Origin: Candidatus Gottesmanbacteria bacterium | GTDB lineage: Bacteria; Patescibacteriota; Microgenomatia; UBA10105; UBA927 | Length of the DNA stretch: 64,000 bases | Direction: 5' to 3' | Assembly: GCA_023245355.1 (NCBI GenBank) | Contig: JAHFKN010000003.1 | Span: 121,368-185,367 of the forward strand | In this document: piece after piece, positions 24,205 through 63,721 of the stretch | Position numbering within the stretch: the stretch's first letter is position 1 | How the letters are laid out: each line of letters opens with the position of its first letter | Made by a program: the position numbers and the translations under genes | Notes under the pieces: generated by a model | Told to the model about the DNA's origin: nothing | Seen by the model: the letters and a program-made list of their open reading frames with translations, nothing else | The model's database searches: none

Positions 24205-25509
24205 ATGGACCACGAAATTTCCCGGCTTATCGCGTCTGAAGCCAAGCGTCAGCAGGATGTACTGGAAATGATCCCGTCAGAAAACTACGCGTCTTTGGCC
24301 GTACGCGAAGCATTGGGGTCAGTATTAACCAACAAATATTCCGAGGGGTATCCGCATAAGCGGTATTATCAGGGCAACCGTTTCGTTGATGAAATAGAAG
24401 ATATCGCCATAAACCGCGCCAAAAAATTGTTTATGGTCCCTCATGTGAACGTACAGCCGTATTCGGGATCTCCGGCAAATGCTGCCGTATTTTTTGCGCT
24501 GCTTCAACCCAAAGATGCCATTATGGGCCTGAAGCTTTCGGCAGGAGGACACCTCACCCACGGACATCCGGATATCACGTTTTCGGGTAAATATTTTGCA
24601 TCGAGCCAGTATGATGTGGAAGAAGACGGGATGATTAACCTTGAAAAAGTAGCGGTAATGGCAAGAACGGTGAAGCCGCGTATGATCGTCGTCGGGACGA
24701 CAGCGTATCCCAGGGTTTATGACTGGAGGGCATGGCGGCAGATCGCTGATGACGTAGGTGCGTACCTGCTTGCGGATATTTCACATATTGCAGGGCTCGT
24801 CGTCGGGGGCGTTCATCCGTCTCCGGTGCCGTTTGCTGATGTCGTGATGACGACCACTCACAAGTCCCTCCGGGGGCCGCGGGGCGCTATGCTTATGGTT
24901 ACCGATACCGGGTTAACAAAAGACCCCGGAATGGCCGAAAAAATCGATAAGGCCGTGTTTCCGGGTCTCCAGGGAGGCCCGCATGACAATGTAACTGCCG
25001 CGATAGCAGTGGCGCTTGAAGAGGCAAGTCAGCCCTCGTTTACCACATACGCGCATCAGGTAGTAAAAAACGCATCCGTGCTTGCCGAAACGCTGTTAAA
25101 CAAGGGAATCGCCCTTACGACCGGGGGAACGGATAACCACCTTATGGTAATCGATCTCCGTCCGCAGAAAGTGATCGGCAATATCGTCGCCGAAGCACTG
25201 GAAGTTGCCGGCATTGTCGTAAACAAAAATAGCGTGCCCCACGATTCGAATCCGCCGTTTTATCCTTCCGGCGTGCGCCTGGGGACACCCGCCATTACGA
25301 CCCGGGGAATGAAAGAAGAGGAGATGAAAAAGATCGGGAGCTGGATAGCAACCGTCATTTCTGAAGTAAGTCATTATCGTTTACCGGACACAAAAGAAGG
25401 AAGACTGGGATTTCTTTCCGGCGTAAAGAAAGAATTGCAGGTAAATAACACATTGCTGAATATAAAAGATGAGGTAGGTGTGCTGTGCAAAAATTTTCTG
25501 GTACCATAA
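24205..25509 (+). CDS. glyA: Serine hydroxymethyltransferase
   Basis: Full-length SHMT, 434 aa, with VTTTTHKSLRGPRGA (PLP-Lys region) and the typical N-terminus. Confidence 0.9.
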   Translation: MDHEISRLIASEAKRQQDVLEMIPSENYASLAVREALGSVLTNKYSEGYPHKRYYQGNRFVDEIEDIAINRAKKLFMVPHVNVQPYSGSPANAAVFFALLQPKDAIMGLKLSAGGHLTHGHPDITFSGKYFASSQYDVEEDGMINLEKVAVMARTVKPRMIVVGTTAYPRVYDWRAWRQIADDVGAYLLADISHIAGLVVGGVHPSPVPFADVVMTTTHKSLRGPRGAMLMVTDTGLTKDPGMAEKIDKAVFPGLQGGPHDNVTAAIAVALEEASQPSFTTYAHQVVKNASVLAETLLNKGIALTTGGTDNHLMVIDLRPQKVIGNIVAEALEVAGIVVNKNSVPHDSNPPFYPSGVRLGTPAITTRGMKEEEMKKIGSWIATVISEVSHYRLPDTKEGRLGFLSGVKKELQVNNTLLNIKDEVGVLCKNFLVP

Positions 25510-25513
25510 ATAT

Positions 25514-25885
25514 ATGAATGAATTTGAAGGCCCGCAGCCATTTAAAACAATGGTGAGTTTAAAAGGTCTTATCAGGACATTTATTGAACGGAGCGGAAAT
25601 CGTGTAACCGTCTTAGTGCCTGAAGATCCTGAGTTTCCTGATGCAAGCCGAAAAGCTGTCGTAGAAGGTGAGGTAGATGAGGGAAGATTTATTATTCACA
25701 GTCTCCGTACGAAATCGATGCAGGAAAACCACGGGTATGCCCGCGCTTTACTCGAAGCGATAAAAGGGGGAATGGATGTAGATGAAGTTGTCGCATTGAG
25801 TCCATCTCCTGAATCAGAAGAAAAAGGTATTTATGACAAAGCCGGATTCAAAAGAGAAGGAAGAAACCGGGTTTGGAGGCGCTAG
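25514..25885 (+). CDS. Hypothetical small protein
   Basis: 123 aa from ATG 25514 (MNEFEGPQPF...), followed by a terminator hairpin at 25999-26023. Confidence 0.35.
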   Translation: MNEFEGPQPFKTMVSLKGLIRTFIERSGNRVTVLVPEDPEFPDASRKAVVEGEVDEGRFIIHSLRTKSMQENHGYARALLEAIKGGMDVDEVVALSPSPESEEKGIYDKAGFKREGRNRVWRR

Positions 25886-33804: not shown

Positions 33805-34217
33805 ACGGGTGCCTGTTTTGTAAACTGGTAGCAAACGAAATTCCTTCGTTTACGGTATACGAAGACGAACATGTCCGGGCGTTTCTGGATATTTACGGGG
33901 CGACGGACGGACATACTATGGTGATCCTTAAGAAGCACGGGGACACGATATTATCCTATACATCTTCCGAACTCGGGGTATTGTGGGCAGGCGTGCAGAA
34001 AGTAGCGTCCGCGATAGAAAAAGCATTTGACACCCAAATTCTATCCATCGGTATTAACCACGGAGAGCCGCAGGGAGTGCGGCATCTCCATGTTCATATT
34101 ATGCCTCGCTTTGACGGGGACGGAGGTGGTATAATGCAGTCACTTCCCGGTAAAAAACTGTCGAATAAAGATTTCACAGAAGTGGCAAGGAAGATACAAT
34201 CACACATTGGAAAGTGA
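33795..34217 (+). CDS. HIT-family (histidine triad) nucleotide hydrolase/transferase
   Basis: HLHVHIMPR histidine triad. 140 aa. Confidence 0.7.
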   Translation: MRMNGCLFCKLVANEIPSFTVYEDEHVRAFLDIYGATDGHTMVILKKHGDTILSYTSSELGVLWAGVQKVASAIEKAFDTQILSIGINHGEPQGVRHLHVHIMPRFDGDGGGIMQSLPGKKLSNKDFTEVARKIQSHIGK

Positions 34218-34232
34218 GGTGTTTTTATTTAT

Positions 34233-34430
34233 ATGGTATTTGTCAAAGCACAACCAGGCGATACATCAGATGCATTGATCCGTAAATTTATGCGCAAAGT
34301 CTTAAATGAAGGGATTTTGCAGGATCTTAAAAAGCGTGAACATTACATCAAACCGGCGGAAAAGCGCAAAGAACAGAAAAAGGAACTTGCGCGCCGCATG
34401 AAGAGAAACCGCAAATTGGCGATGCGGTAA
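34233..34430 (+). CDS. rpsU: 30S ribosomal protein S21
   Basis: 65 aa, basic, with EHYIKPAEKRK...RRMKRNRK matching the S21 consensus. Confidence 0.8.
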   Translation: MVFVKAQPGDTSDALIRKFMRKVLNEGILQDLKKREHYIKPAEKRKEQKKELARRMKRNRKLAMR

Positions 34431-34439
34431 TATACGGGT

Positions 34440-34886
34440 ATGTTACTTGATGATTTACACGCGCAGCTTACTGCTGCCATGAAAGCCCATGATACCGTTA
34501 CGGTGGATACCGTACGGTTTTTGTTGGCTGCCGTAAACTATGTTGCTATAGCCAAATACGGCGCTCAGGGTGACGCCAAAGTGACCGATGAGGACGTGTT
34601 GGATGTGGTCAAGAAGCAGGTGAAAACGCACCGTGAATCCATTGATGCGTTTACCAAAGCGGGACGCACGGAATTGGCGCAAAACGAACGCGCACAACTG
34701 GAGGTTCTGGAAAAGTATCTTCCCAGTCAGATAAGCGATGAGGAACTTTCGAAACTGCTGGAACCGGTAGCTGCTGCCGGCGGAGATTTCGGGCCATTGA
34801 TGGGCCGCGCTATGGCAGCGGCCAAGGGGCAAGCTGACGGCGGACGCGTATCTATCATGCTCAAGCAACTGCTGTCTTCCAAATAA
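34440..34886 (+). CDS. yqeY: GatB/YqeY domain protein
   Basis: LEKYLPSQISDEEL and MGRAMAAAKGQADGGRVSIMLKQLL match the YqeY family. Conserved rpsU-yqeY linkage. Confidence 0.7.
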   Translation: MLLDDLHAQLTAAMKAHDTVTVDTVRFLLAAVNYVAIAKYGAQGDAKVTDEDVLDVVKKQVKTHRESIDAFTKAGRTELAQNERAQLEVLEKYLPSQISDEELSKLLEPVAAAGGDFGPLMGRAMAAAKGQADGGRVSIMLKQLLSSK

Positions 34887-58928: not shown

Positions 58929-59234
58929 TTGTATACGGGCACGTGCCATGATGAATATATGTCACTGGGACATCTTCTAAAGCATCATAAACTGTTTTTC
59001 GTTTACCTCATTCTTTTCTTCGTCGTCGGGGCAGTCGATATGTTTAATCTCGACCGGCTGATTTATAAAGCAGTCTGCGATATGGTAGCCCCCGTTTCCG
59101 GCAGCCCGTGTCCGCCGTACTATGATATTCCGATCTGGAGCGTGTATCTTTCGCTTGCGGTGTTAGCAGGGCTGTATCACGTCCACGACGAGATCAGAAC
59201 GTCTAACAAGCACTTATCCGCCCACAAACACTGA
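58929..59234 (+). CDS. Small membrane protein (hypothetical)
   Basis: 101 aa with 2 TM segments. Confidence 0.3.
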   Translation: MYTGTCHDEYMSLGHLLKHHKLFFVYLILFFVVGAVDMFNLDRLIYKAVCDMVAPVSGSPCPPYYDIPIWSVYLSLAVLAGLYHVHDEIRTSNKHLSAHKH

Positions 59235-59242
59235 TTCGAGGT

Positions 59243-59467
59243 TCATTTCCCGGTGATTTCAAACAGTTTTTGCTTGGATTTGTGGCCGGAAAGAAGAATC
59301 ACCGCACTCTTTTTCACCCCGAAATGTTTTGCCAGTGCTTCCATCGCTGCCTGATTGGCTTTGCCCTCCAGCGGGGGAGCGTTTACGTACACGTGCAGCA
59401 TGCCAGTCAGGTCTTCTTCTACCCTTGGCCGCTTCGCGTTGGGGTGGGTGATAACGGATATCCGCAT
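59243..59467 (-). CDS. DUF167 (YggU/UPF0235) family protein
   Basis: MRISVITHPNAKRPRVEE...GMLHVYVNAPPLEGKANQA matches DUF167. The ORF-track start at 59596 adds 43 implausible residues. Confidence 0.55.
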   Translation of the reverse strand: MRISVITHPNAKRPRVEEDLTGMLHVYVNAPPLEGKANQAAMEALAKHFGVKKSAVILLSGHKSKQKLFEITGK

Positions 59468-59620
59468 AGAGAGATTATACCGCAACGAGTGCGTCGCTGT
59501 TATCTGGTTTTTCCGAGGAGATTTAGCATGCTCGCGCGAGTGGAGTGGAAGAATGAGAGTGGGTAAATAGGGCGTCAGGTTGAGATAATATGACAATAAT
59601 GTTTTAAATTACTGTTTTAG

Positions 59621-59629
59621 TGATATAAT
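59621..59629 (+). promoter_or_regulatory. Extended -10 promoter (TGATATAAT) for island operon
   Basis: Perfect extended -10 element 12 nt upstream of ATG 59641 with no SD sequence, implying a near-leaderless transcript. Confidence 0.4.
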
Positions 59630-59640
59630 TTTTATCGCCT

Positions 59641-60789
59641 ATGATAAAAAGCATCACTATCAATAATTTTAAAAGCATAATTAATTCTTCAATAAAATTT
59701 CCAGCTTTCGTAACAATAGCGGGCGAGAATGCTGTGGGCAAAACTAATCTTATTCAGTCTATTAAATTCTTAAAAAGTATTATTTTGGGAGCCTCAACGA
59801 ATGAGGCTCAAAAAAAGATTAGCTTAATTCCAAATGAACTATTTAATTTTACAGATAAGAACACAGAATTTTCTATACAAATTGTTGTAGAAACTAAAGA
59901 AGAGATTGAATATGAGTTTTATATAAAAGTTTCCTTAAAGAATGGATCTCCTGTTCCGCCCTTGCTACTAGTAAAACAAGAAAAGTTAATTCGCTACAGT
60001 AAAGAGCTGGGGAACCAAATTGTATACCTTCGTGAAGGCGGTGACTTTAAAGAAAAAGGAACTACACCATTCCCTTTAGCAGTTGAGCCAAATAAATTAG
60101 CATTATCAATCTATAAGAATCAGGACACAGATAATATTAAATATTTTTTTTCAAATCTAGTAATACCTGATTTTGAGGACATTAATAATCTCAACTCTAT
60201 TGGCATTGGGAAACAGGGCTCAACGAGTAGTGATTTAGCGGATATTCTTATTAACTTAAGTCATGGCAAGCCAGAAGTATATCAAGATTTCTTAAAGATA
60301 ACTAGAAAATTTATGCCCTATTTTTCTTCTTTCAACGAGATTCCGATGTCAAACACGAGTGACGAAAGCACAAAAGGAAATTTTTTGCTGGTTTTAGCTG
60401 AAAATAACCTAAAAGAAAGTCTTTCAATGCAATCCATATCAGCTGGAGACATAAGAACCTTATACTTAATAGCTAGTGCGTTGACGGTCGAAAATAATTC
60501 AAGTTTGATAATTGAGGAAATTGAAAATGGAATTCATCCGAAAAGAATTTTGGACTTGGTTGATCAGTTGGAAACCATAGCTAGGGTTAAAGATTTACAG
60601 ATCATTTTTACCACTCATAGTTCAATGCTAATTAACAAAATGCCAGTCACTAAAATTATTTTTGTACAAAAGAAAACTGATACTGGGACGCAGTTTCATT
60701 TACTAACCGACTCCGATCAAATAACTAAGATTCGAGATTATTTAGAGAATGGCGGAGACATAACGGATTATTTAAATAATCTTCGATAG
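59641..60789 (+). CDS. OLD/ABC-type AAA ATPase (AAA_15/AAA_21-like) of a candidate two-gene defence module
   Basis: N-terminal ITINNFKSI...VTIAGENAVGKTNLIQSI (Walker A), central coiled/insert region, ISAGDIRTL (signature-like), LIIEEIENGIHP (Walker B and D-loop), FTTHS (H-loop). AT-rich codon usage. Confidence 0.7.
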   Translation: MIKSITINNFKSIINSSIKFPAFVTIAGENAVGKTNLIQSIKFLKSIILGASTNEAQKKISLIPNELFNFTDKNTEFSIQIVVETKEEIEYEFYIKVSLKNGSPVPPLLLVKQEKLIRYSKELGNQIVYLREGGDFKEKGTTPFPLAVEPNKLALSIYKNQDTDNIKYFFSNLVIPDFEDINNLNSIGIGKQGSTSSDLADILINLSHGKPEVYQDFLKITRKFMPYFSSFNEIPMSNTSDESTKGNFLLVLAENNLKESLSMQSISAGDIRTLYLIASALTVENNSSLIIEEIENGIHPKRILDLVDQLETIARVKDLQIIFTTHSSMLINKMPVTKIIFVQKKTDTGTQFHLLTDSDQITKIRDYLENGGDITDYLNNLR

Positions 60790-60792
60790 CCT

Positions 60793-61377
60793 ATGAAAAT
60801 TGGCGTCCTTTATGAGGGAAAATTTGATGATAGAGCTATCAAAAGGATAATTATTAAGATTATTTTACAGAAGTATCCTCGTGTAGACCCTGCAGATATA
60901 GTATTTGTTACCAAATCGGGTGGAGGTAATATAGAAGGGCATATATATCCAGCAACGTCATTATTTTTTGTAGCGAATAATTGTGATTGTGCTATATACA
61001 TTTCTGATACTGATAATGGAGCAACGTCGGTGAGGAAAAAAATGCAAAGAGTCGCCGCAAAAGTAAAAAAAGCTGTGGAGGACTTAGCAAGAGGAGCACG
61101 AGTGGTAGTAGCTTGTCCAAAACCAGAACTGGAGCAGTGGTTTTTTGGAGATGAATTGACAATTAAGAGAGTATTGGAATTGCCAGAAACCGAACCGCTA
61201 AAATATCCTGAGATGGCGCCTAAGGATAGGTTGACTAAATTAATATTTGATTATAATAGTTATTTATTAACGCCAGTAGAGATTTACGAGAAAATAGCTA
61301 GTCATCTGGATTTAGCTAAATTAGATGATCACCGTAGTTTTAGAAAATTTCGCCTTGAGTTGTTGAGTAATATTTAA
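60793..61377 (+). CDS. Small TOPRIM-like protein (DUF4276/RloB-like) partner of the ATPase
   Basis: 194 aa. VLYEGKFDD (TOPRIM Glu), AIYISDTDNG (DxD), a later acidic ELEQW. Coupled to the ATPase with a 3-nt gap. AT-rich. Confidence 0.5.
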   Translation: MKIGVLYEGKFDDRAIKRIIIKIILQKYPRVDPADIVFVTKSGGGNIEGHIYPATSLFFVANNCDCAIYISDTDNGATSVRKKMQRVAAKVKKAVEDLARGARVVVACPKPELEQWFFGDELTIKRVLELPETEPLKYPEMAPKDRLTKLIFDYNSYLLTPVEIYEKIASHLDLAKLDDHRSFRKFRLELLSNI

Positions 61378-61476
61378 TCCCCTAACTTACCTAATTCCAC
61401 AAGAGGTTATGAATGTGATTGATTACGACTAAACAAGCGATTTTGTTAATACTTGAATTCACTTAGTAGTTTGGGT

Positions 61477-62715
61477 TTATTGCCACTTTTCCAGTGCCCG
61501 CTGAAGTTCAGGACTGTCTTTAGCTTCCGAGAGGGGAATACCGGCAAGAGTAGCTTTGAGCGACTGGACGATGGCGCGTGCTCCCGCGGGTGTACCGTCC
61601 GGGTGCCCGTGAATGCCGCCGCCGAAGTTCATCAGCAAATCCTTGCCGAGGATAGAAACCAGATCAGGAATGTGTCCCGGATGTAGTCCGCCCGATGCGG
61701 TAGGGAGTGTGGTTTTTAAGCCATACCATTCACTGCGCAGGAAATTATTAATCGTCACCACTTCTTCTTTGCCGCCTTCCATTTTCCCGACCACCGTACC
61801 TGTGTGGAATGAGTCGATACCGGCGAGTCTCGCCAGTTTAGCGATAACCAGCATGGAGATGCCATACTGCCGAGAGCGGGTAAATGCCGCGTGCATCGCG
61901 CGGTGCCCGTGGATCATGAGCCCGTAATTCCGGTTCCGTATCCCTTGGGTTGCCGCAAATCCTGCGGTGAGCACGTCAATCATCAGGCAGTTAGCGCCCG
62001 AGTCCCGCACGTAGTTAGCCCGTTTCATCATCTCTTCGTAGCTTGCTGTGATGTTAAACGCGTGGACTTTTGCCTTTCCGATCTCCAGATATCCTTTTTC
62101 TTTCATGCGGCTGGTGACTTCGTCTACCCGGGTGTAGAAACTATCAAACGTCATGTTGGCGAGGTTCTCGTCGTCTTTTACTAAGTTTACGCCGTTGTCC
62201 CATACTTCCATACATGCTTCTGCGTGACGCACGCTCGTAAGTCCCAGTTTGGGTTTGATGATGGAGCCGGTGAGCGGACCGTCTTTGACTCCGGTGAGAT
62301 TACGTATGCCGTCTATGCCGAGAGCCGGTCCCGGAAACGCCTTTACAAATACTTCAGGAAATTCCAAATCTTCGAGCCGGAGCCCCACGATTTCTTTGAG
62401 TCCGAATACGTTTCCCGTGATGGAGGAGAGAAGCTGGGGGACACTTCCTGCCTCAAACAGGTCCAAAGGATATGCGACAGTGATGCGTCCCGAATTTTCG
62501 TCCATGGCAATCACTTTGGCATGGAGTTTGTCCCAGATGTCTTTTTCTTCCAGTCCTGAGTCGGTCCACGTGCCGACGGAGGATTCTGCAGCGACGCCTC
62601 CTGCTGTTTTATCGAACGGTTCTCCCTCTACTTTGAGGGTAAAGGTGGCTACGATGTGTTTGGTTTTATCGACCGTTTCGTTTAATGCCAGATAGTTTTT
62701 ATACTGATTTGCCAT
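61477..62715 (-). CDS. rbcL: Ribulose-1,5-bisphosphate carboxylase large-subunit homolog, form III / II-III type
   Basis: Catalytic loop GSIIKPKLGL, KDDENL, and the C-terminal GGG..HGHP loop-6 region. 412 aa from ATG 62715 (MANQYKNYL); the ORF-track start is over-extended. Confidence 0.8.
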   Translation of the reverse strand: MANQYKNYLALNETVDKTKHIVATFTLKVEGEPFDKTAGGVAAESSVGTWTDSGLEEKDIWDKLHAKVIAMDENSGRITVAYPLDLFEAGSVPQLLSSITGNVFGLKEIVGLRLEDLEFPEVFVKAFPGPALGIDGIRNLTGVKDGPLTGSIIKPKLGLTSVRHAEACMEVWDNGVNLVKDDENLANMTFDSFYTRVDEVTSRMKEKGYLEIGKAKVHAFNITASYEEMMKRANYVRDSGANCLMIDVLTAGFAATQGIRNRNYGLMIHGHRAMHAAFTRSRQYGISMLVIAKLARLAGIDSFHTGTVVGKMEGGKEEVVTINNFLRSEWYGLKTTLPTASGGLHPGHIPDLVSILGKDLLMNFGGGIHGHPDGTPAGARAIVQSLKATLAGIPLSEAKDSPELQRALEKWQ

Positions 62716-63721
62716 AGTAGAGATGTTTGTCGTGTCCTTTGTCAAAAATAAACGGATAGCGCTTTTTGGTAGCCGCCAGCACCTGTTTGCCGGCAATCAC
62801 GCCGTCTTCACAGATTACTTTTATATTACTAAGATACGGCACATAATCAAAGGCCGGCGCGTAGAATTTGAGATTTGTAGGAGCATCGGCCCATATTTCG
62901 TCCGTGCTCCGCATTTCTATCATGGCCGGGGAAAAAGGTTTCGGGTCATACTTGAGAAGTGTTGTGAGCACATAGACGGGAATGTGTTTGCGTTTGGCGG
63001 CGGCAGAAACAGCCAGTGAGCCGATTTTGTTTACGAACCCCTTGTCATTGATAAGATCCGCTCCGATAAACACCGCGTCGATTTTGCCGATACGTCCCTC
63101 GATGAGCGCGACTGCGACATCGTCTACGACCATCGTCACATCGCTAAAACCCGCGGCGAGCAGTTCTTTGGCAGTCGTCCTGCCTTGGAACCGCGGCCGG
63201 GTTTCCGCGACATACACCGAGAAATATGCGCCCTTGCTGCGGGCCTCCGTAAACATGTTCACAGTCGTAGATGAATGACAAAGTGTAAGGTACACGCCGC
63301 CGTCCACAAGGAGCGGGGCCCCCAGAGCAGGAATAGTCTTTTTGCCGGCAGAAACATATTCCCTGTATTCTTCTATCCTATTTAGCGCTTCCGACGTACA
63401 CCCTAAGCTTACGAAGCGCACGGCGTTTTGTGCCAGCGGTTCGGTTGGGCGGGCGTATGCTAACCGCTCGCCTAATTTAGTCAGTTCATAGCAGGAGATG
63501 TCCGGATTGTTGTGCATGACGCCGGAGAGTGTATCGAGCACCTTGAGTGCGACGTTTGTCGCTCCCTGGACTTTGAGGGACTTGATGTCAGATTCTGCCG
63601 TATCTATAAAATCCGTCACTATTTTAGTGTAGGACAAATACGTGCCGGGGGCAATCCGATTCCGTGAGGTTTCTTTTGGGTTTTCCGGAAATGGCCGGAG
63701 CCGTGATACAATTCCAGTCAT
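62699..63721 (-). CDS. Ribose-1,5-bisphosphate isomerase (eIF-2B alpha/beta/delta / e2b2 family)
   Basis: eIF-2B-like fold motifs ([24 protein letters not shown]). 340 aa from ATG 63721. Stop overlaps the RuBisCO start by 17 nt. Confidence 0.6.

What the first reader, a model, noticed from the sequence alone, without database searches (positions are those of the whole stretch)
59585..61476. Sharply AT-rich ~1.9 kb island inserted between the DUF167 gene and the RuBisCO locus, without mobility genes
Seen in sequence: GC drops from about 50% in flanking genes to roughly 30% or less; for example 59641-59700 has 10 G+C out of 60 nt. The drop begins at 59585 and ends right at the RuBisCO stop codon (61477). 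Codon usage switches to AAA/ATT/AAT-rich. The island has its own extended -10 promoter (TGATATAAT, 59621-59629), effectively leaderless, and contains only the two-gene module. No integrase, transposase, tRNA or obvious direct repeats flank it. Inference: recent horizontal acquisition of a selfish or defence cassette.
Basis: seen in the sequence. Interest (0 to 1): 0.6.

Follow-up and report, generated by a model that had tools for sequence, protein, structure and literature searches.

The report
Foreign AT-rich ATPase–nuclease cassette beside RuBisCO
A 1.9 kb AT-rich patch next to the RuBisCO gene of a groundwater Gottesmanbacterium (candidate phyla radiation) is a horizontally acquired two-gene ATPase plus nuclease-like module of a type already catalogued as a candidate anti-phage system, so it is real but fairly ordinary.

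Summary
Window 59580-61481 has 33% GC against 50% elsewhere (z = -11), and it is the only such patch in the 64 kb.

It holds one co-oriented two-gene operon:
- a 382-aa ABC-type ATPase (AAA_21/AAA_15; its fold matches Rad50, PtuA, OLD and GajA);
- a 194-aa partner distantly related to DUF4276, a family that one comparative study places in the Toprim superfamily.

The partner keeps E8, D12, D72xD74, E114 and K144. These match, in order, the two-metal site residues described for OLD nucleases.

The host is a Candidatus Gottesmanbacteria (CPR) genome. None of 27 related RuBisCO loci carries the cassette. In the closest relative (91-93% nucleotide identity in the flanks), RuBisCO and DUF167 are 6 nt apart. 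Other relatives carry a native-GC MgtC/DUF4010 gene or unrelated cargo at this site, so it is a flexible spot.

Homologous modules always keep the partner gene (7 of 7 contexts). They have 28-33% GC and sit in 31-40% GC genomes, one of them labelled Peregrinibacteria.

The best match is PADLOC's candidate system HEC-01, with weaker matches to PDC-M07/M25 and MAD3/MAD4. HEC-01 showed no defence in the published assays. A defence function here is inferred, not shown.

Verdict: horizontal acquisition is supported, and this is a new, divergent member of a known kind.

The parts
59580..61481 (.). AT-rich island (33% GC in a 50% GC genome)
   Evidence: Maximal-scoring AT segment, z = -11, tetranucleotide outlier. 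Absent from 27 related loci.
59621..59629 (+). Extended -10-like element TGATATAAT, 11 nt upstream of the ATPase ATG. No Shine-Dalgarno sequence; putative promoter with a very short leader.
   Evidence: Sequence read directly. Not reported by the two-hexamer scan because the -35 is poor. Not conserved in the homologous modules. Its function is inferred only.
59641..60789 (+). 382-aa ABC-type ATPase (AAA_21/AAA_15) with intact Walker A (G28..G33K34), signature S267xG269, Walker B/catalytic E292E293, and H-loop T325H326
   Evidence: Pfam AAA_21 1.9e-22. PADLOC PDC-M07A 4e-32 and HEC-01A 4e-30. Invariant motifs across 39 homologues. AF2 pLDDT 87.6. Foldseek hits to Rad50, PtuA, OLD and GajA at E about 1e-12.
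60793..61377 (+). 194-aa DUF4276-like, putative Toprim-type nuclease. Its start lies 3 nt after the ATPase stop (stop TAG, 3-nt spacer CCT, ATG).
   Evidence: Pfam DUF4276 2.3e-6 (28.4 bits, below the 30.2 cut-off). HEC-01B 5e-6. MAD4 1.3e-6. Family of 460 clusters, of which 26 of 59 sampled hit DUF4276 and 34 of 59 hit one HEC-01B model. Invariant E8, D72, E114, K144. AF2 pLDDT 93.8 with b-a-b-a-b-a-b order.
61378..61476 (.). AT-rich 3' tail of the island, between the convergent stops of the DUF4276-like gene and RuBisCO. No terminator-like hairpin.
59555..59589 (-). Native-GC remnant of a conserved motif (CCTGACGCCCTATTTACCC). In relatives this motif is the -35 region of the promoter of a MgtC/DUF4010 gene lying just after the RuBisCO stop. 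It abuts the left edge of the island.
   Evidence: blastn 89% over 36 nt to L018. Alignment with L006, L008, L009 and L018. The MgtC/DUF4010 gene is identified and is absent from the window.
59474..59503 (-). Promoter-like site ATAACA-18-TATAAT, 6 nt upstream of the DUF167 ATG (leaderless type). Shared as GGTAnAAT-N6-TATG with relatives that carry a gene upstream of DUF167.
   Evidence: 10 of 12 match; alignment.
59243..59467 (-). DUF167 (YggU-like) gene, the left flank. The conserved start is at 59467, not the 117-aa TTG start at 59596.
   Evidence: Pfam 1.2e-20. Alignment of orthologues.
61477..62715 (-). RuBisCO large subunit gene (not assigned to a form here), the right flank. It is convergent with the cassette.
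   Evidence: Pfam. Orthologues in Gottesmanbacteria MAGs.

Best explanation
The island is a horizontally acquired two-gene cassette in a Candidatus Gottesmanbacteria genome. It sits at a flexible spot between the RuBisCO stop codon and DUF167. The ancestral MgtC/DUF4010 gene at this spot has been lost; only its promoter stub remains.

The cassette is a divergent member of the HEC-01 type of candidate anti-phage system, and its close homologues are so far seen only on uncultivated, low-GC metagenome contigs (one labelled Peregrinibacteria). It encodes an ABC ATPase and a small DUF4276/Toprim-like metal-dependent nuclease.

Inferred mechanism, by analogy with PARIS, OLD and Gabija: the ATPase oligomer holds or gates the nuclease and senses an infection cue. 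ATP binding or hydrolysis then licenses the Toprim-like partner to cut nucleic acid (DNA or tRNA). This stops phage replication, possibly at the cost of the cell.

Shown here: foreign composition, absence from relatives, strict gene pairing, intact ATPase motifs, and a conserved acidic/lysine constellation in the partner.

Inferred only: nuclease activity, physical complex formation, the trigger, the substrate, and the anti-phage role. The mode of insertion is also inferred. It was probably recombination without a dedicated integrase, for example after DNA uptake, because no mobility gene or repeat is present.
For: Foreign origin:
- GC 33% against 50%, z = -11, GC3 28% against 59%.
- None of 27 related RuBisCO loci has the cassette.
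- The closest relative L049 has flanks 93.5% and 91.4% identical in nucleotides, with RuBisCO TAA-CACGGC-ATG DUF167.
- Homologous modules have 28-33% GC in 31-40% GC hosts.
- The same junctions appear in 3 further assemblies.

Flexible site:
- Relatives carry MgtC/DUF4010 plus extra orphan genes, a 661-aa AT-rich orphan, a methyltransferase, or glycosyl-transfer-type genes at the same position.
- The promoter stub is retained at 59555-59589.

Module identity:
- The partner gene lies directly downstream in 7 of 7 homologue contexts.
- PADLOC gives HEC-01A/B, PDC-M07A and PDC-M25A/B. NCBIfam gives MAD3/MAD4 below cut-off.
- The ATPase fold resembles Rad50, PtuA, OLD and GajA.
- The partner keeps E8, D12 (+4), D72xD74, E114 on the first helix after strand 4, and K144 in the helical part. 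This is the same order as E400, E404, D455xD457, E508 and K562 in BpOLD (PMC6755086).
- DUF4276 has been assigned to the Toprim superfamily (PMC12065111), and HEC-01B was described as TOPRIM-like (bioRxiv 10.1101/2024.01.29.577857).
Against: - No experiment supports defence. HEC-01 gave no protection against the phages tested in E. coli (bioRxiv 10.1101/2024.01.29.577857).
- The window protein scores below Pfam's DUF4276 threshold (28.4 against 30.2).
- Foldseek found no significant solved or viral structural match for the partner. PDB sequence and profile searches found none. hhalign against GyrB and DnaG Toprim-containing sequences was not significant. The Toprim assignment therefore rests on motifs, secondary-structure order and the literature.
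- No other defence genes were seen next to the cassette here. Other cargo at this site in relatives has no defence hits apart from one weak partial match of the L012 methyltransferase to the MADS mad2 model (E 4.9e-05).
- L049's junction is a derived deletion, so loss in L049 cannot be formally excluded in favour of gain in the window lineage.
Confidence: 0.6

Rival explanations
1. The cassette is older than it looks. It was already present in the common ancestor of the window strain and L049 (or earlier) and was deleted in the relatives, rather than gained recently in the window lineage.
For: L049's RuBisCO-DUF167 junction is a derived deletion. It lacks the MgtC-promoter stub and the DUF167 leaderless promoter, both of which the window shares with more distant relatives. 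Its RuBisCO 3' end is also remodelled: 77% identity to the window in the last 45 nt, against 92% for L018. L007 shows a similar, independent tight fusion.
Against: - GC3 of 28% against 59% shows essentially no amelioration.
- None of 27 relatives carries the cassette.
- Relatives with the intact ancestral spacer (L006, L008, L009, L018) have no trace of it.
Confidence: 0.15
2. It is a selfish addiction (toxin-antitoxin-like) or homing-type module. The Toprim-like nuclease is a toxin or a site-specific endonuclease that promotes the cassette's own retention or spread, and the ATPase regulates it. There is no anti-phage role.
For: - The cassette is solitary and compact, and it sits between housekeeping genes in several genomes without a recognisable mobility gene.
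- Pfam's AAA_21 name refers to a 'putative AbiEii toxin, Type IV TA system'.
- HEC-01 showed no defence in the published assays.
Against: - There are no target-site duplications, terminal repeats or conserved flanking sequence.
- Insertion sites differ in every genome examined.
- ABC ATPase plus Toprim pairs with known functions (PARIS, OLD, Gabija) are defence systems (PMC11464382).
- One homologue lies on an integrase-bearing element, which suggests passive carriage.
Confidence: 0.15
3. It is a housekeeping DNA-repair or maintenance pair (a RecF/Rad50-like ATPase with a nuclease) that merely has unusual composition.
For: The ATPase's best solved-structure matches include Rad50 and SMC heads.
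Against: - Its distribution is patchy, and it is absent from every relative of this organism.
- Its composition is foreign.
- It has no long coiled coil and no Mre11/SbcD-type partner.
- Its closest profile matches are defence-candidate families.
Confidence: 0.05
4. It is an assembly or binning chimera that joins an AT-rich contig from another organism to the Gottesmanbacteria scaffold.
For: There is a sharp compositional step at both edges.
Against: Three independent assemblies (ENA ERZ27279977, Logan SRR14366796, Logan SRR14366791) are 100% identical across 2.8-3.1 kb. Two of them span both junctions; the third ends inside RuBisCO, just past the right junction.
Confidence: 0.02

Closest known systems
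HEC-01 (Hma-embedded candidate 01; PADLOC-DB v2; Payne et al., bioRxiv 10.1101/2024.01.29.577857)
   Same: A two-gene, co-oriented pair of an ABC ATPase and a small TOPRIM/DUF4276-like protein. HEC-01A models hit the ATPase (4e-30; 39 of 39 family members). HEC-01B models are by far the most frequent hits of the partner family.
   Different: - The match is very divergent. The window partner reaches only E = 5e-6, and the ATPase scores slightly better against PDC-M07A.
- It is not embedded in an Hma, BREX or RM system.
- It occurs on low-GC contigs of uncultivated bacteria (the window host is CPR; one homologue is labelled Peregrinibacteria), not in the RefSeq genomes used to define HEC-01.
- HEC-01 itself has no demonstrated defence activity.
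PARIS (AriA ABC ATPase + AriB DUF4435 Toprim nuclease; PMC11464382)
   Same: A split ABC ATPase plus a stand-alone Toprim-type effector. AriA models hit the ATPase (1e-21). It is the best-understood mechanistic analogue: the ATPase scaffold senses a trigger and releases a tRNA-cleaving Toprim nuclease.
   Different: - The partner is DUF4276-like, not DUF4435, and has no AriB hit.
- The ATPase is about 100 residues shorter than AriA (382 aa against a protein of about 55 kDa).
- The trigger and substrate are unknown.
OLD family nucleases and Gabija GajA (PMC6755086, PMC7049728, PMC10781630)
   Same: An ABC ATPase with Toprim nuclease chemistry. The partner's conserved E, +4 acidic residue, DxD, helix Glu and Lys follow the same order as the BpOLD two-metal site. 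The ATPase fold matches 6p74 and 8x5i.
   Different: In OLD and GajA the domains are fused in one polypeptide; here they are two genes. There is no UvrD-like GajB helicase. The Toprim-like core is much smaller.
MADS MAD3/MAD4 and Menshen NsnB/NsnC (DUF4276 variants) (NCBIfam; PMC12065111)
   Same: An ATPase plus DUF4276 pair used as a sub-module. There are weak hits to MAD3 (3.8e-21), MAD4 (1.3e-6) and NsnB (1e-21).
   Different: Scores are far below the equivalog cut-offs (75.7 against 420; 28.7 against 160). There is no methyltransferase or other MADS genes, and no NsnA. Here the pair stands alone.

Membership tests
HEC-01 (PADLOC candidate system) | Gene A matches the HEC-01A ABC ATPase models | tested here: met
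   HEC-01A at E = 4e-30 over residues 2-353. All 39 aligned sequences (the window protein and 38 homologues) hit several HEC-01A models. PDC-M07A scores slightly higher.
HEC-01 (PADLOC candidate system) | An adjacent gene B matches the HEC-01B (TOPRIM/DUF4276-like) models | tested here: met
   The window protein gives E = 5.4e-6, which is weak. Within its family, 34 of 59 members hit PDLC04210 and the best E-value is 2e-18.
HEC-01 (PADLOC candidate system) | The two genes are adjacent and co-oriented | tested here: met
   The gap in the window is 3 nt. The partner lies directly downstream in 7 of 7 homologue contexts.
HEC-01 (PADLOC candidate system) | Anti-phage activity | not testable with these tools
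   Not shown even for the founding HEC-01 (bioRxiv 10.1101/2024.01.29.577857).
Pfam DUF4276 (PF14103) | Score at or above the gathering threshold | tested here: not met
   28.4 bits against 30.2. However, 26 of 59 sampled members of the family found by profile search hit DUF4276, with a best E-value of 1.2e-14. It is therefore a divergent relative at superfamily level.
Toprim superfamily | A conserved Glu after strand 1 and a DxD motif after strand 3 | tested here: met
   E8 and D72 are invariant, and D74 is conserved in at least 90% of 59 diverse members. They lie just after strands 2-7 and 66-70 of the AF2 model.
Toprim superfamily | Three-layer alpha/beta fold similar to solved Toprim domains | tested here: inconclusive
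PARIS | The AriB effector is a DUF4435 Toprim protein | tested here: not met
   The partner has no DUF4435 or AriB hit in Pfam or PADLOC.
OLD / Gabija | ATPase and Toprim fused in one protein (plus GajB helicase for Gabija) | tested here: not met
   There are two separate ORFs and no helicase gene in the island.
MADS | MAD3/MAD4 equivalog scores and accompanying methyltransferase genes | tested here: not met
   75.7 against a cut-off of 420, and 28.7 against 160. The island has only two genes.
Classical integrase-mediated genomic island | Integrase or transposase, a tRNA or att target, and flanking direct repeats | tested here: not met
   No tRNA in the window. No significant flanking repeats. 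Only two ORFs in the island. One homologue elsewhere lies 4.6 kb from an integrase.
ABC ATPase (SMC/Rad50/OLD clade) | Walker A, signature motif, Walker B with catalytic Glu, H-loop, and an ABC fold | tested here: met
   G28, G33, K34, S267, G269, E292, E293, T325 and H326 are invariant. Foldseek gives E about 1e-12 to Rad50, PtuA, OLD and GajA, with TM about 0.5.

The most novel reading that the evidence does not exclude
The cassette could be an autonomous mobile unit rather than passive cargo. In this reading the Toprim-like nuclease, gated by the ATPase, cuts intergenic DNA downstream of highly expressed operons and so promotes the cassette's own integrase-free insertion into CPR genomes. 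That would make it a new kind of homing two-gene element. It would explain why the cassette sits alone between housekeeping genes, without repeats or recombinase, in several unrelated genomes.
Probability: 0.05. Interest if true: 0.65.

Novelty: new member of a known kind. Interest (0 to 1): 0.3.

Why it matters
- It is a well-delimited case of horizontal transfer into a CPR bacterium: the closest relative lacks the cassette and a remnant of the ancestral locus survives, although that relative's junction is itself a derived deletion, not a pristine empty site.
- It extends the ABC-ATPase + DUF4276/Toprim-like candidate defence type (HEC-01) to a distinct lineage found on low-GC metagenome contigs (one labelled Peregrinibacteria). 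The ATPase has about 40 close homologues, and profile search finds 460 partner clusters at 50% identity.
- It shows that the spot just downstream of the RuBisCO/AMP-pathway operon is a flexible locus in Gottesmanbacteria.
- It does not reveal a new mechanism. The function of this system type is still unproven, so its value lies mainly in supplying a compact, motif-intact candidate for biochemical testing.

Tried and rejected
- **PDB sequence and profile searches for the partner.** Only chance hits were found.
- **hhalign of the partner profile against GyrB and DnaG from fetched loci.** Neither was significant. The DnaG hit did line up the two DxD motifs, but at probability 0.5%.
- **tblastn of both proteins against phage and plasmid collections.** No match.
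- **PHROGs.** Only generic ATPase families appeared.
- **Rfam on 59000-62000.** Nothing came near the thresholds.
- **Repeat and tRNA scans for att sites.** Nothing found.
- **A conserved promoter across homologous modules.** None found.
- **Cluster look-up for host names.** No names were returned.
- **PADLOC, Pfam and NCBIfam on alternative cargo genes at the same site in relatives.** No significant defence hits; the only match was a weak partial one (E 4.9e-05) of the L012 methyltransferase to the MADS mad2 model. I therefore dropped the idea that the site is specifically a 'defence hotspot' and call it a general flexible locus.
- **Assembly chimera.** Rejected.
Full report
**1.

Sliding-window composition shows a single deep trough. 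Region 59585-61476 has 33.1% GC against 50.1% for the rest of the window. The 584 background windows of the same length range from 0.449 to 0.541, giving z = -11. An unsupervised maximal AT-rich segment runs 59580-61481. Tetranucleotide distance to the window background is 0.60, against 0.21 +/- 0.02.

GC3 is 27-29% in the two island genes and 57-60% in five neighbours. Synonymous usage shifts to ATT/ATA, AAT and TTA. The AAA/AAG ratio is the same as in the host.

There are 10 G+C in 59641-59700, TGATATAAT lies at 59621-59629, and the ATG is at 59641. There is no tRNA, no meaningful flanking repeat, and no Rfam hit.

Three further assemblies from other runs are 100% identical across the region (two through both junctions, one through the left junction and into RuBisCO), so it is not a chimera.

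**2. Host and locus history**

A RuBisCO-based scan of species genomes places the window in Candidatus Gottesmanbacteria, a CPR/Patescibacteria lineage. The flanking genes are Dus, a ferric-reductase-like membrane protein, a 91-aa ORF and DUF167 on one side, and RuBisCO and an IF-2B-family protein (the family that includes ribose-1,5-bisphosphate isomerase) on the other.

None of 27 related loci (RuBisCO at least 65% identical, at least 1 kb of downstream sequence) encodes either island protein.

The closest relative is L049, from a 111 kb metagenome contig. Its nucleotide identity to the window is 93.5% over 4.5 kb on the DUF167 side and 91.4% over 2.1 kb on the RuBisCO side. In L049, RuBisCO TAA, the spacer CACGGC, and the DUF167 ATG follow one another directly. 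L007 has an ATGA stop/start overlap at the same junction.

Other relatives (L006, L008, L009, L018, L050, L051, L057) carry a native-GC MgtC/DUF4010 membrane-protein gene between RuBisCO and DUF167, sometimes with an extra orphan gene. More distant relatives carry other cargo:
- a 661-aa AT-rich orphan in L005 (35% GC; the contig ends there);
- a methyltransferase in L012;
- membrane or glycosyl-transfer-type genes in L013.

None of these has a significant defence-family hit (only a weak partial match, E 4.9e-05, of the L012 methyltransferase to the MADS mad2 model). The site is a general flexible locus.

The window retains a 35-nt native-GC stub (59589->59555, minus strand). It is homologous to the conserved -35 region (CCTGACGCCCTATTTACCC, followed in relatives by N17-TATAAT) of the MgtC/DUF4010 promoter, which in relatives starts 10-60 nt after the RuBisCO stop. 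The window also keeps the GGTAnAAT-N6-TATG leaderless-type promoter of DUF167 and an L018-like RuBisCO 3' end. L049 lacks all three features.

The ancestral arrangement was therefore RuBisCO - P - mgtC/DUF4010 - P - DUF167. In the window lineage the membrane gene was lost, and the AT-rich cassette now lies exactly between the RuBisCO stop and the promoter stub. L049 and L007 deleted the whole spacer. Gain in the window lineage is favoured by composition. Loss in L049 cannot be formally excluded.

**3. What the cassette encodes**

*Gene 1 (59641-60789, 382 aa).* It is an ABC-type ATPase.
- Pfam: AAA_21 1.9e-22 and AAA_15 1.5e-14.
- Walker A, signature motif, Walker B/catalytic Glu and H-loop residues are invariant across the 39 aligned sequences (window plus 38 homologues).
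- The AF2 model (pLDDT 87.6) matches Rad50, SMC heads, Septu and retron PtuA, Thermus OLD and GajA at E about 1e-12.

*Gene 2 (60793-61377, 194 aa).* Its ATG lies 3 nt after the stop of gene 1. The word-indexed search found only the protein itself. A profile built from the partners of the ATPase homologues recovered 22 close relatives and then 460 clusters at 50% identity.
- 26 of 59 sampled members hit Pfam DUF4276 (best 1.2e-14). The window protein itself is just below threshold (28.4 against 30.2 bits).
- 34 of 59 hit one HEC-01B model.
- E8, D72, E114 and K144 are invariant. D12, D74 and W116 are conserved in at least 90% of members.
- The AF2 model (pLDDT 93.8) has a b1-a1-b2-a2-b3-a3-b4 core followed by a helical domain. 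E8 lies just after b1, DxD just after b3, E114 on the first following helix, and K144 in the helical part.

This order matches the two-metal site described for BpOLD (E400, E404, D455xD457, E508, K562; PMC6755086). It also agrees with the published assignment of DUF4276 to the Toprim superfamily (PMC12065111) and with the description of HEC-01B as TOPRIM-like (bioRxiv 10.1101/2024.01.29.577857).

**4. The module as a unit, and its likely donor**

The ATPase has about 38 homologues at 36-55% identity. In all 7 contexts inspected, a 190-202-aa partner follows directly. These modules have 28-33% GC and lie in contigs whose flanks are 31-40% GC. One contig is labelled Peregrinibacteria. The modules usually sit alone between housekeeping genes such as GatB/ClpB, MurC/GyrB, RecX and DnaG. 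One lies 4.6 kb from a tyrosine integrase with HTH genes.

The window cassette has the family's usual composition, which is very different from its 50% GC host. That points to transfer from a low-GC donor, probably another CPR bacterium to judge from the one labelled homologue. The nearest sampled homologue (L040) is only 55%/44% identical in protein, so the donor is unsampled. No relatives were found in the phage or plasmid collections.

**5. Mechanism (inferred)**

By analogy with PARIS, OLD and Gabija, the ABC ATPase probably oligomerises, binds the Toprim-like partner and senses an infection-associated cue. ATP binding or hydrolysis would then license the partner's metal-dependent nuclease against DNA or tRNA.

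The gene pairing, the intact catalytic motifs and the foreign origin are shown here. Complex formation, the trigger, the substrate and the anti-phage effect are not.

Expression may start from the extended -10 element with a leader of about 5 nt. Neither gene has a Shine-Dalgarno sequence; both starts read GCCT-ATG-A. The cassette converges on RuBisCO with no terminator between them.

**6. Comparison with known systems, and verdict**

The closest catalogued type is HEC-01, together with PADLOC's PDC-M07/M25 candidates. MAD3/MAD4 of MADS and the NsnB/NsnC-DUF4276 variants of Menshen contain related sub-modules. PARIS is the best mechanistic analogue, but it uses a DUF4435 effector, which is not matched here. 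OLD and Gabija differ because their domains are fused.

The island is a new, divergent member of a known but functionally unproven kind. Interest is modest.

Noticed in passing
L005:11390-13375 (minus strand): L005 has the second most similar RuBisCO overall (96% aa; the most similar among the species genomes). It carries a different AT-rich insert (35% GC against 48%) at the same place, also convergent with RuBisCO. The insert is a 661-aa orphan ORF with no Pfam, NCBIfam, PADLOC or PHROG hit, and the contig ends right after it.
   Followed up: partly
L005, L008, L009 against window 61477-63619: There is mosaicism in the RuBisCO operon (RuBisCO plus the IF-2B-family gene). RuBisCO is 93-96% identical to the window, but the adjacent IF-2B-family (putative ribose-1,5-bisphosphate isomerase) gene is only 48-50% identical. 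In L006, L007 and L018 that gene is 75-77% identical. This suggests recombination or replacement within the operon among Gottesmanbacteria.
   Followed up: no
L049:3060-5127, corresponding to the ~130-nt stretch 63589-63720 of the window: The close relative L049 has its own ~2 kb lower-GC (40-45%) insert between the YchF-like GTPase and the IF-2B-family gene upstream of RuBisCO. It encodes a 312-aa protein that looks like a family-2 glycosyltransferase and a 203-aa protein that looks like a methyltransferase (both judged by eye from the sequences, not searched), and a 92-aa membrane protein. The insert is absent from the window. Each strain therefore has a private indel on opposite sides of the RuBisCO operon.
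   Followed up: partly
window 59555-59589 (-); L018:11302-11337; L008, L009 and L006 equivalents: A strongly conserved 20-nt motif CCTGACGCCCTATTTACCC is followed by N17-TATAAT upstream of the MgtC/DUF4010 gene in several Gottesmanbacteria. It survives in the window although the gene is gone. It is more conserved than expected for a plain -35 region, so it may also be a regulator binding site.
   Followed up: partly
window 59467-59503 (-); L006, L008, L009, L018, L051: DUF167 has a TAnAAT box only 6 nt before its ATG (a leaderless-type start) wherever another gene lies upstream. In L007 and L049 it is instead joined directly to RuBisCO: an ATGA stop/start overlap (translational coupling) in L007 and a 6-nt spacer in L049. 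Gene callers extend the window DUF167 to 117 aa from TTG 59596, which is probably wrong; the conserved start at 59467 gives 74 aa.
   Followed up: partly
L095:11736-12944: One homologous ATPase/partner module lies about 4.6 kb from a tyrosine integrase, with HTH and SNase genes between them. The module can therefore ride on an integrative element.
   Followed up: no
window 59634-59647 and 60786-60799; L040:1545-1567: Both cassette genes start with GCCT-ATG-A(T/A)AA and have no Shine-Dalgarno sequence. The closest homologue (L040) shares gcctATGATAAAAAG at the ATPase start.
   Followed up: no
window 25301-25700 and about 34151-34450: These are the only other 300-nt windows below 40% GC (0.39). 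They are shallow dips, nothing like the island.
   Followed up: no
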